A DNA stretch of 64,000 bases, taken from NCBI GenBank assembly GCA_000002435.2, contig CM018790.1; one strand, given 5' to 3'. The DNA is from Giardia intestinalis (Eukaryota). The notes beneath the pieces were generated by a model, which was given only the letters and a program-made list of their open reading frames with translations, did no database searches and was not told the origin of the DNA. Shown here piece by piece: positions 1,164 through 8,334 of this stretch. The position numbers and the translations under genes were made by a program. How positions within the stretch are numbered: the stretch's first letter is position 1; each line of letters opens with the position of its first letter.

Positions 1164-4100
1164 ATACTATTTGGGGTTCTTGCTTTATCCTCAGCTTTGT
1201 AGCTACCTCTTATGGACATCTGCACTGCTAAAAGAATCCTCCACATCCTACCCAACTGAAGTAAATTTGGCCCGCCAAGATCACTGTGGCTAGTCGCTTC
1301 CAATCTCCTTCCGGCCGTTCTTGGGGCGGCTCTGCAAGTTGTTGGAAGCTCCCTTCAGCAGCATAGGCTTCGCAAGCTTGCTAGCAGAATTCTCTATCCT
1401 CTTCCTAAGTGGAGCCAACAACGTGACTGTATCTATCTAACTAAACTTAACCCAAGTGGTATAGTAATGCTCTCAGCGGTATTCTGTGTGTCTTCTTTCC
1501 TTAGAAGAAGCTGCTTTGAAGTTTTACTGTAACGTTATCTAACAGTATATAGTATCGCTGCTGCGCCTCCCAACTTTGCTGTTCTACAACACATAATAAA
1601 TTTCTATGCCAGCCCTACAGTTTTATTCTGCATTGACAACGAAGGTATATGGCGGTCATGCATCGAATTACAACCTCATTGAGAAGCATGAACTCGGCAG
1701 TAGATTGGTGGTTATATTTAGCTGCAAGAGTAGAATTGAGTGTCCATACTCATTCCGCATATCAGTCTTGCAGGTGATCACCAAGCTTCTTATAGTCAGA
1801 TGAACATATTGAACTGTCTTTCTTGAAGTTGCTGTTCTAATATTATCTTATGTTTTAGTTTTAGGTTTACAATGGAGTATCCCGTCATTAAGGATGTTGT
1901 CGTTATCTGCAAGCATTATAGAGCGTCGGCACACGAATCCTCGGAGGCTGTATTCTATGGCACGATCTTCTATATTATCCCGGTTCATCTTTCTTTCAAT
2001 GACAAGGACACTACTTGCAGCTTTGAGCCCATAAGGTAGACGTTATTGGGAAGAAAAACTCATAGGAATGGATGCTAGAGTTCAGGTGTTGGGAGCATAA
2101 CTTGTCCGCGCGTAACTTTGGATCTGGAAGCTACGCTTATCTGTTTCCGCAAAATACTAACTTACAAGGCATTCGTATAGCGTTTAGGGTCTATGTGAAT
2201 AATATTCCCGTCTCTACCATAAGTTTTGATGCATCTACAACTATAGTGATTAGTATCTTGGCTGAGCGTCTATAGTATCTGCTTCACACGTCTCAGAGAG
2301 AGGACGTTATTATCAGTTCATGGTGGAAAAGAGTCAGTGGAGAGGCGTGAGTCTGCTCTTGTCCAGCAAGAAAGTTAGCGAATCCCTTGCGATGAATCTA
2401 TAGCAATATAATGAAGATTCTGCTTTTAGTCACCTAGTTACAATGGGAGCGTTAGGAGATAATGGACAAATGATGGCTTAAACTTAGGGACGTTTGTATT
2501 ACTTTGTCCAGACCATCGATCAGCCTTTTCACAAGAAGTGGAGTAATCTAAAAACAGGCTAATTTTGTACTGTTTTGCCATATATCAATTCATCAAGCTA
2601 GCTATCTAAGACTGAATTTATATGCATAAGATCCCCTATTGTAAGACTAAACGCAAGGCCCTTTTTATTAGTTAGTAGTTGTGGTTCTGGAAAAGTAGGT
2701 ATAACCGGATGAGTTCTTTGAACGTCACAAAAAGCTCCTTATCACCCAGCATGCCCTGCAGAGAGTGCAAGGGCCAATTACTCCAGAAGCCTGTCACTCC
2801 TTGACTAGGTTCTAATGGCAAACATAAAAGGGAGTGGTTATTATTCGCATAGAACTTCTCATATCATCCTATCATCATGCAGAGCGCCCTTCTGCATACG
2901 CTGGCCTATCAATCTTTATCTGATCTAGTAACAAATTACAATCCTGTGACGCACTTGCTAGTATTCCATATCAGCCACTCCTTAGTTCTATAATTAGGAC
3001 TGCTATCCTATCGATACTCACCGATGATATGATATACGTTACACTTCGCATGTGTATTTGCTGATAGAGCATTTTACTATCAACTAACTAACACTCAGAT
3101 GAGCCAGATGGTGTTATAATATCAATGTACACGATAATCATCATTGGGTCTTGTTCTAGCTATATAAACGGAACCTTTAGGGACTCTGCTTTTAATAGAT
3201 TACTAGAAAGGTACATTCTATGTCATCAATTGTGCTGTTTCTGGTTACATTATTCTATAGACTGCACTGCTTCTTACCATGTGCACTACTTTCACGGAGT
3301 TAGGTCTCGCTATAAGCTTCAGTTTATCTGCCATACTAGATGTTTCACTGCTTGTAGATTAAAGCCTGTTGTATCTTATTTATGCGCTTATTAATGAGTT
3401 AATTAGGGGTTATACATCCAGATGCTCCCCACTCCATCATTTGCATTCTTACATTCATGACACTTATTACTGCCCTGTACATTTGGCTTGCTGACATATT
3501 CAGACAACTATCTCTTTCATCGATATGTAGCCGCTTCTAATCTGCATCATTTATTTATAGAACTTGTGTACAGCTGCTTTATCTATTTTACTTACGTTCA
3601 CGATGACCTTATTAATAAGCTGATTATGTCCTCTACAACTAGGTACGTTTTTATGTCTGGTGTCACTGACCGCAGTTCCAGCCACTTCATTGCAAGCAGC
3701 AAAGGATTGCTTGATCTCTATAGGGCATGGATGTTTAAGGGTGTGTTGGCAGTCTTATATAGATATACTTCTTCTATTCTGCCAATCGCGCCCTTGCATC
3801 TTCAGACATATTTTCATTGTCCTAGTAAAGTTATTGCATTCTCTTCCGTATGAAAAATAAATATTACTCACTGAATAGATATCTCATTCTTACAAGTATA
3901 ATTTTGGAGCTGGTGGATGCCGTATTAACAAGACTGTTACCACTCGATTATACTCACGTAGCGTAAGTCTGTGTCTATAACACTGGCACATGCTTAGCAT
4001 TTATCTAAGCTTGCTTTTCCTGGTACGCATTTCTTTGTTAATGCTTATGCGATCTGGCTAACCTTAAGTGAAACTACCAACATAGTCAGTTGGTTAGCAA

Positions 4101-7100
4101 GAGCGTTGAGCACAAATGACACAGCTGAAAATGAAGGGCTAGCACCTTATTAAGTAACATGACCAGATAATGACTATAAGGCAAACGCCCTATGAACATA
4201 CCTCTGTCCACCGAGATTGGTTTGTTAGCTGCCGTCCGAGCAAATTCTATGCGAGTTTCTACACCAGGGGGGTCTTCGATCATTTACCTGTTCGATGTCT
4301 GAACCCAGAGTCCGAGAATCGGGCGCCGTCCAGCTCCGGCGGAAGAAGAAGCCCAGACGAAGGAGCCGATAGCCCCGACGTCCAGCCTTTAACAAATAAC
4401 AGACCCGCGACTGCTCCCATGAAGGTGCCACCGAGGAAGGTCCATAGGACTCTGGAGCGAAGCGCCAAGAAAGCGCCCAGTAGGATGAACGAAAGAGCAA
4501 GGAGATGAGAGCAGGGAAGCTCTCACATTCTCCTCCCCCCAACGAACATCCCTGTGCCAGAGAACGGTTGCATGGTGGCAGGGCTCTCAATGACCGTTTC
4601 TCTAGGAGACCACCTAGCCCTGAAGGGGTCACTCGCTGACTACATGAACTGGCTCAAGAACGCCGGGTTCACTAAGAGACTGCACCCTTGGGGACCTCCT
4701 ACGCGATCCACAGCACGAAGAGCCACTCGACCACTTCTGCGTCTCCTGCCATGTCTCTTTCGACTTCTAAAGGGTCTCGAGCAGCACGTCTGGAGAACCC
4801 TCTCCCGCTTTGGGCTCCTCTTGCTGCTCCTTCTGCAGCTTTGCGACCGACAGACGGTGCCAGCACACGCACACCGAGCCTTGTCGCCCAAGTGCGGTGT
4901 CCCACGCGGGCCCTCACCGTTGCCCGTCGCGATGCTCTGGACAGAAAGCATCGGACCGGAGCGCTTCCCAGATTCCTCGGAGGCGCTCAGGGACGACCCC
5001 AACTATCTGCCAGGACAGGCCAAGTCTGTGCGGTTGAGAGACCAGCAACACCAGAGCGCCCTTGAGTTGCTCGCAGCCCGGTGGAGCCAGGTCAGCCCTT
5101 GCCTCAAACAGGGGTCCCAGTCGCTGGTTGTCCCCAGAGGGTCGTGTAACCTGCAGAACTCTAAAAGGGAGGCGTCGCTCCGAACACACACCAGTGCACC
5201 GTGAACCCTACCCCTCACGGGGGAGAGATCAGGTATCACACCAAGAACGAGGACCTTAGGAACCTGATGGAGAGGAGCGCCCTACGCTGGAGTGGCACCA
5301 GGCGAACGTTGAACTAGTAGGAGCGGAAGAGCACATGCCTGTCCTGAGCGAAGACCCTCCGCGGTGAGGCCGTCCAGACGTATGCAGCACAGACACCGGA
5401 TGCAGGGCGCCACTGAGTGGAGTAATAGGAATAGAGAAGGACATCCCCTTCAGCACCCATCGTGCGAACGTGCTCACGGGAAGGTACCTAGCACCCCGCA
5501 GAGCCCCAGGTGAGAGCCGAGGAGACGTGCCTCGCTCACACAGCGGGGAAGCGGAGGAGCGGCATTCACCATCCTACTGCCCGGCCTGCAGCCTCTGCCT
5601 CGCCTCGAGGGGGAGCTGCACCCTGACAGCGCCACCGACGACCAGCACCTTGCTATCCAGAGGGCCGGATCAGGACGGCCTGGCTCCTGAGGGATACGGA
5701 CCCTCTCAGCCATCGGAGAGCACGGACGGCCCTACCAGATCACCGACGAAGAGACGGCCAGGGCGACTAGTCCACGGGGCTTGAAGTCCCCGGGCCCTCT
5801 GGCCTGGACCTGCGCTGGCAAGCCCCCATCCGGGTGCAGGCGTTCCGGGGCCCCTAAACAGGCCTTCAGCGAGATTATCAGCGCGACCCATAGGATGGGA
5901 CGCGTGCTCTGTACGGTTCCGTCTGGTCCTTCCTCAAGAATGAGACAGGGCGACCACAATCAATGGACGATCATGATTCGCTCCACAAGGTAGTCCCGAG
6001 GAGCTGCGTCGAGGCCTTCCTCCGGCTGCGCCACGCTGCACCCCTGGGCTCGGTCCCTCGGGGTCCTGAGCATTCTTCTGTGCTGCGGGAGACAGAACCT
6101 GCTCACCAGGAGCTGAAGGAGATGCCCCGCTCACTGCCCATGTCGACGACACACTCAGCTTCCATAGTGACGACAGTGACACGACGGGGATAGTCACAGA
6201 GGCGACAGGCCTGGCGAAACGCTATAGCTCGACGGTCAGCACTGGGTATAGGAGCACAGAGGGACAGGAGGCCTCCTTTCTAACTAGTCTCGAAGGAGCT
6301 CCCAGGGCAATCGAGGGCCGAAACTAGTGATGGCACCAATCACTGCCCACTGGCCGGGATGGACCCACACGTGACCCATGTGAATCCCTCGACAAGAGAT
6401 GGGGCCCCTGGGGTGTCTGGTTGGCAGAGGCAGACTGATCCTGCCCACACCGAAGAGCGGTGACCTGGGCCACCCGCCAGGCGTCTGCCGCAGCAGCTGG
6501 CAGTGCCTGACACCCTCGAGTAGACGGGTGCCGGCTGCCGAGCGGGACAACCAAGCGGCGAACCGGTCCTGATCGCTTCTGATGCTTTGGACGACGCCTC
6601 GACAGACCGAATCATTCCCCCAAGCGTGCTGTGCGGTGCAGATGGACCAGCCCACACGTCACTGAGCCAGACGCACTGCACAGGGTGAGCGCTGACATGA
6701 TCTCGTGCTGGGTGACGGACCACCTGCAAAAGCGCCCTGCGATCCGTGAGCAGAGGGCCGGACCTCTCCCCGACACAACGCATGGGAGTACTCCATCGGC
6801 ATCCACGAACGCGTACTATGACTCCAAGATGGAGGCGTATGGGGAGCGCACCTCCGACAATAGGGTCGATGATCCACGTCATGGGGAGACAAAGAGGCAC
6901 CCGAGGAACGGGGTAGACACCCGAGGTCGTGGCGTGCGATCCTCGTCGTAGAGCACCAGGGCCACGTGGAGGCCAGGCTGCTGTGACCGACGGCAGGCCC
7001 GGGACAGCAGGTGCTCAATAGCTATCAGGCGATGGTTGACCCCGACGAGCCAGAGGAAGGGGGAACCCTGGAGGCACCGCGAGGAGCGGCAGCTTCCAGG

Positions 7101-7784: not shown

Positions 7785-8334
7785 ACGGCGGTGCAGACAT
7801 ATGAAAATCATATTAAATATTAGTCATAAGGAGCAGTAGGTCACAGCTCTTGTTTTCCGCTATACATAATTTGTAACGTCTGCTCCAACCCTTATCTTGC
7901 AGGTAGGACGGCTCCATTAGGCGATGACCGCTTAGGTTGAAGCGCTGGAGCTTTCCTAGCCTCTTGGTGAGCTGATGACGGTTTCTCAAGCATATATACT
8001 TATATCGACATAAGGACTCACGCTACCAATCATCGTAGAAGCTCTTGGTATTACTAAACAAGATACAGAGAAGCAAGTTAGACCATGTACTGGGGCTAAG
8101 GATAGATAGACGATTTCCGATAGTGTCATTGTGAAGCAAGGAAACAACTACTAACATGGTTTATGCATTATGTGCAAGCGCAGAATTTTTATACAACCTA
8201 TTTGCAATACACAGGTAACACGACGGGTAGCCATTGTACGGAGTATATCACACAGCTTGAAACAACCACATGTAGTGGAAGAACCAATATAATAAACCTC
8301 TAATAGAACGAGTTGTTCGTGTGTCCATTCCTGA

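What the first reader, a model, noticed from the sequence alone, without database searches (positions are those of the whole stretch)
1164..8334. A 7-kb ORF-free 'desert' in an otherwise compact, gene-dense Giardia-type genome
From 8.3 kb onward, genes are separated by 20–430 nt. Between the HCMP gene (ending at 1163) and the helicase fragment (ending at 8335) there is no ATG-initiated ORF over ~120 aa on either strand. The only confident feature is one tRNA. The desert abuts a cysteine-rich surface-protein gene, which is the type of gene that sits in variable, non-syntenic regions. The desert could mark a synteny break, a decayed gene cluster, a retroelement graveyard or a centromere-like or late-replicating domain.
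Basis: seen in the sequence. Interest (0 to 1): 0.6.

Follow-up and report, generated by a model that had tools for sequence, protein, structure and literature searches.

The report
Gene-free spacer at Giardia rearrangement site
The 7-kb gap is real non-coding DNA in the Giardia intestinalis WB genome, drifting at about the neutral rate beside a surface-protein gene at an old rearrangement site, which is a known type of gene-poor region rather than a new element.

Summary
The gene-free interval is real, but the description is only partly right. ATG ORFs of 210 aa (4572-5204 +) and 180 aa (6340-6882 -) exist; their lengths fit chance in 62% GC DNA.

The interval has three parts:
- an AT-rich block, 1164-4250 (40% GC);
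- a sharply bounded GC-rich block, 4251-7270 (62% GC);
- 1.1 kb of 3' flank carrying tRNA-Asp(GTC), 7711-7785 (-).

There is no Pfam domain in six frames, no Rfam hit except the tRNA, no tandem repeats and no telomere repeats.

The window is G. intestinalis WB. Assemblages B and E also have gene-poor DNA here. Only the tRNA and the helicase flank align well. The GC block is about 60% identical to P15, roughly the neutral level, and is full of indels. P15 has 7 kb more, including a NEK kinase gene. Assemblage B has a true VSP at the far side.

Segment 4590-5200 belongs to a degenerate dispersed repeat with another copy in WB.

The "helicase fragment" is a truncated second copy of an intact 1108-aa helicase encoded three genes away. 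It matches that gene exactly at protein level. G. muris has only the intact gene, next to the dynein gene.

Verdict: an ordinary non-syntenic spacer flanking a cysteine-rich gene, as the literature already describes.

The parts
3..1163 (+). 3' part of a cysteine-rich membrane protein gene (HCMP type). This is the left flank of the interval.
   Evidence: Pfam VSP PF03302, E = 5.5e-71. The C-terminus is ...TTPLN, not CRGKA. 62% GC.
1164..4250 (.). AT-rich non-coding block (40% GC)
   Evidence: GC is 37-45%. The longest ATG ORF is 89 aa, which fits Markov simulation at P = 0.21. No Pfam hit in six frames at E <= 1. No Rfam hit. No repeats. No similarity to the P15 or GS_B loci that were fetched.
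4251..7270 (.). GC-rich non-coding block (62% GC, locally 57-72%) with sharp edges and A>T on the + strand
   Evidence: Composition. No Pfam hit in six frames. No Y/FxDD motif. No CXXC enrichment. ORF lengths fit chance. Local 3-base GC periodicity changes phase along the block.
4590..5200 (+). Segment of a degenerate dispersed Giardia repeat family
   Evidence: The ORF 4572-5201 hits six short 'hypothetical' ORFs. They include WB GL50803_88658 (93% by phmmer; 92% by tblastn), WB GL50803_98230 (89%, then a frame change) and DH DHA2_154574. The copies switch frame relative to the window. None maps to the P15 or GS_B loci held.
5393..7146 (.). Part of the GC block that is collinear with gene-free 63-74% GC DNA of assemblage E (P15)
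   Evidence: Three collinear blastn pieces match L014 21218-19227 at 59-63% identity. The longest piece has 217 gaps in 1435 columns and E = 5e-35. Mismatches show no lag-3 excess. The neutral benchmark is pS 0.34-0.375.
7147..7261 (.). Indel site. P15 carries about 7 kb here (a NEK kinase gene, a 394-aa gene and non-coding DNA) that WB lacks.
   Evidence: The WB-P15 alignments stop at 7146 and resume at 7262, which correspond to L014 19227 and 12296. The P15 genes are listed. Neither gene leaves a tblastn trace in the interval.
7262..7710 (.). AT-rich non-coding DNA, syntenic with P15
   Evidence: 72% identity to P15. It does not align with assemblage B left of 7697.
7711..7785 (-). tRNA-Asp (anticodon GTC), the only functional gene in the interval
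   Evidence: ARAGORN. Rfam RF00005 at 67.7 bits. 97% identical and in the same position in P15 and GS_B.
7786..8334 (.). 3' flank of the helicase copy, non-coding. It is probably part of the duplicated arm.
   Evidence: 74-76% identity to P15 and 54% to GS_B. In assemblage E, 457 aligned nt past the stop are 99.3% identical between the intact-gene copy (L013) and the DIC-side copy (L014).
8335..9994 (-). Truncated second copy (3' half, residues 557-1108) of the SF1 'DNA helicase' gene. This is the right flank of the interval.
   Evidence: Pfam AAA_12 plus the tail of AAA_11; the Walker A motif is missing. It is 552/552 identical to WB helicase XP_001707115.1 / KAE8302236.1. Homology to intact genes stops exactly at 9994. 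dN/dS against P15 is 0.15.
9995..10073 (.). Junction and short spacer before the dynein intermediate chain gene (10074-12347 +)
   Evidence: The junction is reproduced at 100% in independent Logan contigs L009 and L010. P15 (L014) and two assemblage B assemblies (L015, L016) have it too. All 8 Logan contigs returned start at 9965, which is 9995 minus 30 and is the pattern of a k=31 graph branch (23 carrying the gene were read).

Best explanation
The interval is non-coding spacer DNA with no function of its own apart from one tRNA-Asp gene. It lies in a lineage-variable, recombination-prone stretch of a G. intestinalis WB chromosome, between a cysteine-rich membrane protein gene and a truncated duplicate of a helicase gene.

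Inferred history:
- The ancestral order was helicase, two ankyrin genes, dynein intermediate chain, as G. muris still has it.
- Before assemblages A, B and E split, this order was rearranged. The rearrangement left a copy of the helicase 3' half plus its flank head-to-head with the dynein gene. The intact helicase stayed a few genes away.
- The DNA between the two copies is free of coding constraint. It gains and loses family genes (HCMP in A, VSP in B, NEK in E). It accumulates decayed repeat fragments and indels, and it diverges at about the neutral rate.
- The two helicase copies are kept alike by gene conversion.

Shown here: absence of genes, composition, synteny pattern, divergence levels, two helicase copies, repeat-family membership of 4590-5200.

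Inferred: the rearrangement mechanism, the inverted orientation of the two copies, and gene conversion as the cause of their identity.
For: No gene:
- Only the tRNA is detected.
- No Pfam domain in six frames of the whole interval at E <= 1.
- ORF lengths fit composition-matched simulations.
- The largest ORF has only short Giardia 'hypothetical' hits whose frames are not preserved.

Identity of the window:
- The DIC protein is identical to WB XP_001706241.1 / KAE8302239.1.

Synteny:
- G. muris has an intact 1193-aa helicase, two Ank genes, then DIC, all on one strand.
- P15, GS and GS_B share the WB junction at 9994/9995.
- The DH (AII) contig ends about 500 nt inside the helicase copy. I did not align it.

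Divergence between WB and P15:
- DIC 90%, helicase copy 86%, tRNA 97%, flank 7262-8334 72-76%.
- GC block 59-63% with 15% gap columns and no codon-like mismatch periodicity.
- Synonymous-site difference is pS 0.34-0.375, so neutral identity should be about 63-66%.

Lineage variability:
- P15 has about 7 kb extra with a NEK kinase gene and a 394-aa gene.
- In GS_B the 6.2 kb from the VSP to the helicase-copy stop is gene-free. Its largest ATG ORF is 126 aa. About 5.5 kb of it does not align with WB.

Two helicase copies:
- WB has an intact 1108-aa protein that is 552/552 identical to the window copy.
- In GS_B the intact gene and the fragment are 96% identical and sit on different contigs.
- In P15 the last 500 nt of contig 56 are 100% identical to contig 228.

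Literature:
- Regions around VSPs are gene-poor with more allelic variation.
- Synteny breaks at cysteine-rich, NEK and ARP families (PMC7000408; PMC3091692).
Against: - I could not read the WB chromosome left of the window. The position and orientation of the intact helicase rest on accession order (KAE8302236 against KAE8302239) and on G. muris synteny, not on sequence.
- The AT block 1164-4250 has no comparison sequence at all, because the P15 locus I could fetch ends at the WB equivalent of 5393. Its neutrality is assumed.
- Parts of the GC block show local 3-base GC periodicity of 0.20-0.26, as large as in the HCMP gene. A decayed coding origin is therefore likely for some of it, though unproven.
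- Only one ORF (4572-5201) was searched exhaustively.
- The wider word-indexed search returned nothing. It also missed hits that later found, so that negative is unreliable.
- No expression, small-RNA or chromatin data could be consulted.
Confidence: 0.75

Rival explanations
1. The GC-rich block is the corpse of one or more mobile elements, for example a dead GilD-type non-LTR retrotransposon or its long 3' UTR. It would have inserted next to the cysteine-rich gene. This concerns origin, and is compatible with the best explanation.
For: - The block is 3.0 kb with sharp compositional edges.
- A>T strand asymmetry runs across most of the block.
- 4590-5200 has diverged, frame-shifted copies elsewhere in WB, in DH and in ENA/Logan contigs.
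- The literature places reverse-transcriptase remnants at WB and P15 synteny breaks and between VSP pairs.
- A review says GilD/M/T have unusually long 3' UTRs and strand bias (PMC5537684).
- From my own memory of Arkhipova & Morrison 2001, GilD consists only of dead copies with deletions and frameshifts.
Against: - No RVT or endonuclease Pfam hit in six frames at E <= 1.
- No Y/FxDD motif in any frame.
- No poly(A) tail or clear target-site duplication at the edges.
- No second copy in the 64-kb window.
- Repeat status is shown for only 0.6 kb of the 3 kb.
Confidence: 0.25
2. The interval is the spacer of a functional inverted-repeat cassette. The intact helicase 3' half plus flank and its truncated copy would form arms of about 2-2.8 kb. 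These arms would drive inversion or gene conversion and so speed turnover of surface-antigen and NEK genes between them. Alternatively, read-through transcription would give hairpin RNA.
For: - Two copies exist in all assemblages, with one shared junction.
- The copies are identical within WB at protein level and 99-100% identical in E, while orthologues differ by 14%.
- The flank 7262-8334 is more conserved than neutral.
- The content between the copies differs in each assemblage, and the cysteine-rich gene has the opposite orientation in A and B.
- Inverted VSP pairs are a known Giardia theme.
Against: - The relative orientation and distance of the two WB copies were not seen in sequence.
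- No inversion isomers were observed.
- Gene conversion alone explains the identity without any function.
- The HCMP of A and the VSP of B are different genes, so their orientation says nothing about flipping.
Confidence: 0.12
3. The interval hides a real but unannotated gene. This could be a fast-evolving protein, a gene broken by sequencing frameshifts, or a long or small non-coding RNA.
For: - ATG ORFs of 210 and 180 aa exist.
- There is local 3-base periodicity in the GC block.
- The old WB annotation called short hypothetical ORFs on a paralogous copy.
Against: - ORF lengths fit chance.
- Family copies do not keep the frame.
- The WB-P15 alignment has 15% gap columns and no codon-like substitution pattern.
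- There are no Pfam or Rfam hits.
- There are no bacterial or archaeal relatives for the 224-aa ORF.
- 7120-10200 is reproduced exactly in independent assemblies, which argues against sequencing frameshifts there.
Confidence: 0.05
4. The interval marks a centromere-like, origin-like or heterochromatic domain.
For: - The region is gene-poor and compositionally odd, with a 3-kb AT-rich block.
- The papers I could search do not map Giardia centromere sequences.
Against: - No tandem or satellite repeats.
- No sequence conservation between assemblages beyond the tRNA.
- Many such VSP-flanking gene-poor regions are scattered over all chromosomes (PMC7000408), which does not fit one centromere per chromosome.
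- The size is only 7 kb.
Confidence: 0.03
5. The interval is an assembly artefact, a chimeric join or collapsed repeat in the long-read assembly.
For: - The right flank is a two-copy repeat.
- Draft contigs of DH, GS and P15 all stop about 450-560 nt inside it.
- All 8 Logan contigs returned break at 9965.
Against: - Window 7120-10018 and 8198-10200 are reproduced at 100% by independent short-read contigs.
- P15 and GS_B assemblies cross the same junction.
- P15 is collinear with 5393-7146.
- The WB assembly was checked against optical maps (PMC7000408).
- The stretch 1164-5392 remains without independent confirmation.
Confidence: 0.03

Closest known systems
Gene-poor, non-syntenic regions flanking VSP/HCMP genes in Giardia intestinalis chromosomes (Xu et al. 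2020, PMC7000408; Jerlström-Hultqvist et al. 2010, PMC3091692)
   Same: - It abuts a cysteine-rich gene.
- It is far less coding than the roughly 81-95% norm.
- Synteny with other assemblages and with G. muris breaks here.
- Other isolates carry VSP and NEK genes at the same place.
- It contains decayed repeat material.
   Different: - This locus is also bounded by a truncated duplicate of a conserved housekeeping-type helicase.
- It keeps a conserved tRNA-Asp.
- No pseudo-VSP or reverse-transcriptase remnant could be recognised in it.
- Higher allelic variation was not testable.
GilD, the 'dead' non-LTR retrotransposon family of Giardia (Arkhipova & Morrison 2001, recalled from memory; cited in PMC5537684)
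   Same: - The GC block is a degenerate sequence with no intact ORF.
- Copies differ by substitutions, indels and frameshifts.
- It is strand-asymmetric.
- It sits at a synteny break.
   Different: - No reverse transcriptase or endonuclease signal was found.
- Only 0.6 kb is shown to be repeated.
- No direct comparison with GilD sequence was possible.
Inverted duplications at inversion breakpoints (staggered-break model described for Drosophila inversions; recalled from memory)
   Same: - A partial copy of a gene sits at the far end of a rearranged segment.
- The intact gene remains at the near end.
- The outgroup shows the simple collinear order.
   Different: - The orientation of the two WB copies was not seen directly.
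- The copies here stay nearly identical over a long time, which needs continuing gene conversion.
- The segment between them has since been largely replaced.
Inverted identical VSP gene pairs with 2.6-3.3 kb spacers holding NEK or reverse-transcriptase remnants (PMC7000408 Table 2; G. muris PMC7641422 Table 3)
   Same: - Near-identical duplicated arms bracket a short spacer.
- The spacer is gene-poor or pseudogene-bearing and lies in a variable region.
   Different: - The arms here are half of a helicase gene, not VSPs.
- One arm is truncated.
- The spacer is probably over 8 kb.

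Membership tests
VSP/HCMP-flanking gene-poor non-syntenic region (Giardia) | Adjacent to a cysteine-rich surface or membrane protein gene | tested here: met
   Pfam VSP E = 5.5e-71 on 3-1160. GS_B has a true VSP (CRGKA) at the far side of its gene-free stretch.
VSP/HCMP-flanking gene-poor non-syntenic region (Giardia) | Coding density far below the genome norm | tested here: met
   7171 nt hold one tRNA, against about 95% coding and a median gap of 84 nt in the rest of the window.
VSP/HCMP-flanking gene-poor non-syntenic region (Giardia) | Synteny with other assemblages or species breaks here, with family genes (VSP, HCMP, NEK, ARP) present or absent | tested here: met
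   P15 has 7 kb extra with a NEK kinase gene. GS_B is unalignable left of 7697. G. muris has two Ank genes instead.
VSP/HCMP-flanking gene-poor non-syntenic region (Giardia) | Raised allelic sequence variation in mapped reads | not testable with these tools
   No read data were available.
Non-LTR retrotransposon remnant (GilD/GilM/GilT) | Reverse transcriptase or endonuclease similarity | tested here: not met
   Six-frame Pfam scans found nothing at E <= 1. No Y/FxDD motif in any frame.
Non-LTR retrotransposon remnant (GilD/GilM/GilT) | Several diverged copies in the genome | tested here: inconclusive
   Met for 4590-5200 only. Copies are WB GL50803_88658 and GL50803_98230, DH DHA2_154574 and ENA/Logan contigs. 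The rest of the block was not searched exhaustively.
Non-LTR retrotransposon remnant (GilD/GilM/GilT) | Nucleotide similarity to the published element sequences | not testable with these tools
   No collection holding the Giardia elements was available. The original paper, PMC64710, is not held.
Protein-coding gene | ORF longer than composition predicts, with frame-preserving homologues | tested here: not met
   Markov simulations give P = 0.06-0.8. Homologous ORFs change frame. WB-P15 mismatches show no lag-3 excess and 15% of columns are gaps.
VSP/HCMP pseudogene array | VSP-domain similarity or CXXC enrichment | tested here: not met
   No PF03302 hit in six frames. tblastn with the WB HCMP and the GS_B VSP gives E >= 0.39. 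TGY-N6-TGY counts are near shuffle expectation in the GC block. A 3-SD excess on the minus strand of the AT block is scattered and interrupted by stops.
Centromere or satellite domain | Tandem or satellite repeats, or cenH3 occupancy | tested here: not met
   Tandem Repeats Finder returns 0 rows and there are no direct repeat families. cenH3 occupancy is not testable.
Subtelomeric or rDNA-associated DNA | TAGGG repeats or rRNA fragments | tested here: not met
   No TAGGG x3 within 2 mismatches. No rRNA match in Rfam at E <= 1.
Duplicated-arm (inverted duplication) structure around the interval | Two copies of the helicase 3' half in one genome | tested here: met
   WB: 552/552 aa identical. 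GS_B: 96% identical, on different contigs. P15: 500 nt at 100% on two contigs.
Duplicated-arm (inverted duplication) structure around the interval | The copies are in inverted orientation and bracket the interval | tested here: inconclusive
   This is inferred only from accession order (KAE8302236 against KAE8302239) and from the G. muris order.

The most novel reading that the evidence does not exclude
The interval is the spacer of an ancient palindrome-like structure that gene conversion keeps homogeneous. One arm would be the 3' half of the intact helicase plus its flank, possibly including a tRNA-Asp. The other arm is the truncated copy at 7150/7262-9994. Under this reading the structure has persisted since before assemblages A, B and E split because it works as a recombination or inversion cassette. 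That cassette would turn over surface-antigen and NEK genes, or would yield hairpin RNA for the RNAi machinery.
Probability: 0.12. Interest if true: 0.6.

Novelty: new member of a known kind. Interest (0 to 1): 0.27.

Why it matters
Taken alone, the interval is an ordinary example of the gene-poor, non-syntenic DNA that published Giardia genome papers already describe around cysteine-rich surface-protein genes.

It is useful as a well-resolved case:
- The outgroup order is known.
- The breakpoint is defined to the base (9994/9995).
- The same junction is shared by three assemblages.

This lets one date the rearrangement and measure neutral decay and indel turnover next to it.

The more interesting by-product is the truncated helicase copy. 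It stays identical to its parent gene within WB, while orthologues between assemblages diverge by 14%. This is a clean case of concerted evolution in an organism whose recombination biology is debated. It also explains why four draft assemblies break at this spot.

Tried and rejected
- Pfam on six-frame translations of the whole interval found nothing.
- Rfam at E <= 1 found only the tRNA. rRNA or rDNA origin is rejected, and no telomere repeats were found.
- blastn of the interval against the 64-kb window found no second copy. The tblastx run printed nothing and may not have executed.
- tblastn with the P15 NEK kinase and 394-aa proteins, the G. muris Ank genes, the WB HCMP, the GS_B VSP and the helicase N-terminal half found no trace in the interval.
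- There is no CXXC codon-pattern enrichment in the GC block. The excess on the minus strand of the AT block dissolved on inspection.
- There is no Y/FxDD motif.
- Exact look-ups of the 216-aa and 186-aa GTG-start ORFs and the 413-aa helicase ORF found nothing on record.
- A concatenated query of all ORFs >= 92 aa against the word-indexed protein collection returned nothing. That negative is unreliable, because the exhaustive search of one of those ORFs later found six relatives.
- Two metagenome scans for helicase-junction sequence found nothing.
- A scan of bacterial and archaeal genomes with the 224-aa ORF found nothing, which weakens a decayed lateral-transfer origin.
- The weak inverted repeat at the GC-block edges (4305-4347 / 7118-7160, 72%) is treated as chance. 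Its seed is 12 nt and, by my estimate, several such seeds are expected in 12 kb.
- Trans-splicing of a split helicase gene was considered. It is rejected because genomic contigs carry the intact gene.
- A single helicase copy in two allelic arrangements was considered. It is rejected because the two copies in GS_B differ by 4%.
- The Arkhipova & Morrison paper could not be read.
- No paper mentions GL50803_88658, GL50803_98230 or DHA2_154574.

Full report
**Observation.** The interval 1164-8334 lies between the stop of a cysteine-rich gene and the stop of a helicase-like ORF.
- The left gene (3-1163 +) has a Pfam VSP domain at E = 5.5e-71. Its C-terminus is ...TTPLN rather than CRGKA, so it is of HCMP type.
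- The right ORF is 8335-10008 (-).
- ARAGORN and Rfam find one gene in the interval, tRNA-Asp(GTC) at 7711-7785 (-).
- The rest of the window is about 95% coding, with a median gap of 84 nt and a largest gap of 837 nt. The 7.2-kb gap is a clear outlier. It is also an outlier against the published WB mean/median intergenic size of 470/81 bp (PMC7641422).
4572-5204 (+) gives 210 aa and 6340-6882 (-) gives 180 aa.
- First-order Markov simulations of each sub-block give maxima of the same size, with P between 0.06 and 0.8. The ORFs are therefore no evidence of genes.

**Anatomy.** The interval is not uniform.
- 1164-4250 is 40% GC.
- 4251-7270 is 62% GC (locally 57-72%), has edges sharp at the 100-nt scale, and has A>T on the + strand over most of its length.
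- 7271-8334 is 43% GC and holds the tRNA.
- There are no tandem repeats and no direct repeat families. There is one weak inverted pair (4305-4347 / 7118-7160, 72%), which I regard as chance.
- Six-frame Pfam scans of the whole interval give nothing at E <= 1.
- Rfam at E <= 1 gives only the tRNA, so rDNA fragments are excluded.
- There are no telomere repeats and no Y/FxDD motif in any frame.
- There is no VSP/HCMP similarity and no CXXC enrichment in the GC block.
- Parts of the GC block show 3-base GC periodicity as strong as a real gene, but the phase changes along the block. That would fit old, frame-shifted coding sequence. It proves nothing.

**Organism and relatives.**
- The neighbouring WD40 gene (10074-12347) encodes the axonemal dynein intermediate chain (DIC). 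It is identical to G. intestinalis WB XP_001706241.1 / KAE8302239.1.
- I fetched the orthologous loci of G. muris (L012), P15 / assemblage E (L011, L014), an assemblage E Logan sample (L013), GS and GS_B / assemblage B (L015, L016) and DH / assemblage AII (L017).

**Right border.**
- G. muris has MDH, a 456-aa gene, TFIIS, an intact 1193-aa SF1 helicase, two ankyrin genes, then DIC. The helicase, the two ankyrin genes and DIC are on one strand, within 7 kb.
- In G. intestinalis, DIC instead abuts, head to head, a helicase ORF that lacks the N-terminal half. Only the tail of AAA_11 and AAA_12 remain, and there is no Walker A motif.
- Homology to intact helicase genes stops exactly at window 9994.
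- The same junction is present in P15 and in two assemblage B assemblies.
- Two independent Logan contigs reproduce window 7120-10018 and 8198-10200 at 100%.
- WB also has an intact 1108-aa 'DNA helicase' (XP_001707115.1 / KAE8302236.1) on the same 1.54-Mb contig, three protein accessions before DIC. Its residues 557-1108 are 552/552 identical to the window copy.
- In GS_B the intact gene and the fragment are on different contigs and 96% identical. Two physical copies therefore exist.
- In P15 the last 500 nt of the intact-gene contig are 100% identical to the DIC-side copy. An assemblage E Logan contig carrying the intact gene is 99% identical to the DIC-side copy through 488 nt past the stop codon.
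- Orthologues between WB and P15 differ by 14%, with dN/dS 0.15. The two copies therefore evolve in concert. I infer gene conversion.
- This two-copy repeat explains two assembly patterns. All 8 Logan contigs returned (of 23 read) start at 9965, which is the pattern of a k=31 branch at 9995. The DH, GS and P15 draft contigs all stop 450-560 nt inside the copy.

**The interval in other assemblages.**
- WB 7294-19503 aligns with P15 in one piece at 86%.
- Within that piece DIC is 90% identical, the helicase copy 86%, the tRNA 97% and the non-coding DNA 7262-8334 72-76%.
- Left of 7262, P15 has about 7 kb that WB lacks. It contains a 719-aa NEK kinase gene and a 394-aa gene. Neither leaves a trace in WB.
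- Beyond that, P15 has gene-free DNA of 63-74% GC that is collinear with WB 5393-7146. Identity is only 59-63%, 15% of columns in the longest piece are gaps, and there is no codon-like mismatch pattern.
- Synonymous sites of the flanking genes differ by 34-37.5%. About 60-65% identity is therefore what neutral DNA should show. The GC block is orthologous and drifting.
- In assemblage B the tRNA and the helicase copy are in place. DNA similarity to WB ends at 7697. About 5.5 kb of gene-free DNA follows (largest ATG ORF 126 aa), and then a true VSP on the other strand.
- A gene-poor stretch therefore exists at this position in A, B and E, but its sequence and gene content are not conserved.

**A repeat fragment.**
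- An exhaustive HMMER search with the 210-aa ORF found six short Giardia ORFs and nothing else.
- Two are WB 'hypothetical proteins', GL50803_88658 (93% by phmmer, 92% by tblastn) and GL50803_98230 (89%). One is DH DHA2_154574. The rest are from ENA and Logan contigs.
- They map to 4590-5200 and change frame relative to the window. This is a degenerate dispersed repeat, not a gene family.
- The WB copies are 7-11% different in protein, so they lie at another locus.
- This result also shows that my earlier negative search with concatenated ORFs cannot be trusted.
- I could not test the other 2.4 kb of the GC block in the same way.
- I could not compare anything with the GilD, GilM or GilT elements. 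Their sequences and the original paper were out of reach.

**Interpretation.**
- The interval is best read as unconstrained spacer at an old rearrangement site, next to a fast-turning-over gene family.
- Published work states that regions around VSPs are gene-poor and more variable. It also states that synteny breaks at cysteine-rich, NEK and ankyrin families, sometimes with retroelement remnants (PMC7000408; PMC3091692).
- 'Decayed cluster or repeat graveyard' is partly right.
- 'Retroelement' is unproven.
- 'Centromere-like' has nothing in its favour.
- The accession order and the G. muris gene order suggest that the intact helicase lies just left of the window, on the opposite strand to the truncated copy. 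If so, the interval would be the spacer between two inverted arms. A staggered-break inversion would produce exactly this layout. I could not read that sequence, so this step is inference.

**Limits.**
- There are no expression, chromatin or read-depth data.
- No comparison sequence exists for 1164-5392.
- No whole-genome nucleotide search of Giardia was possible.

Noticed in passing
window 8335-9994 (-): The 'helicase fragment' is a truncated second copy of an intact 1108-aa helicase gene that lies three protein accessions away on the same WB contig. The copy is 552/552 aa identical to that gene. Orthologues between assemblages differ by 14%, so the two copies evolve in concert. All assemblages share the junction at 9994/9995. 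G. muris has only the intact gene.
   Followed up: yes
window 9385-9994: The 5' third of the helicase copy is 62% GC, with third-codon-position GC of about 0.72-0.77. The 3' part is 41-49% GC. This could be a footprint of GC-biased gene conversion near the junction.
   Followed up: no
L014 12296-19227 (P15 contig ACVC01000228): Assemblage E carries about 7 kb absent from WB, between WB positions 7146 and 7262. It holds a 719-aa NEK kinase gene, a 394-aa gene with no Pfam domain on record, and 2.1 kb of non-coding DNA.
   Followed up: partly
L015, L017, L011 (contig ends equivalent to window about 9491-9545): Three draft assemblies (GS, DH, P15) end their contigs 450-560 nt inside the helicase copy. 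All 8 Logan contigs returned start at 9965. Both are signatures of a collapsed two-copy repeat.
   Followed up: yes
window 4305-4347 and 7118-7160: A weak inverted repeat (43 nt, 72% complementary, 12-nt exact seed) sits just inside both edges of the GC-rich block. It is probably chance, but the placement is curious. Logan contig L009 also ends at 7120.
   Followed up: partly
tool behaviour: The word-indexed protein search with a 2766-aa concatenated query found nothing. An exhaustive search with one of its component ORFs found six relatives, down to E = 2.8e-78. Negatives from the concatenated query should not be relied on.
   Followed up: yes
window 26262-27098: An 837-nt gap is the largest intergenic space outside the interval. 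It has no tRNA and no Rfam match.
   Followed up: no
window 37736-57961 (-): A single 6739-codon ORF fills about 20 kb of the window. It was not examined.
   Followed up: no
window 58352-63178 (+): A 1598-aa ORF of 52-60% GC contains nested ORFs of 156-179 aa on the opposite strand and 174 aa in another frame of the same strand. It is GC-rich like the HCMP gene and may be another family gene. It was not examined.
   Followed up: no
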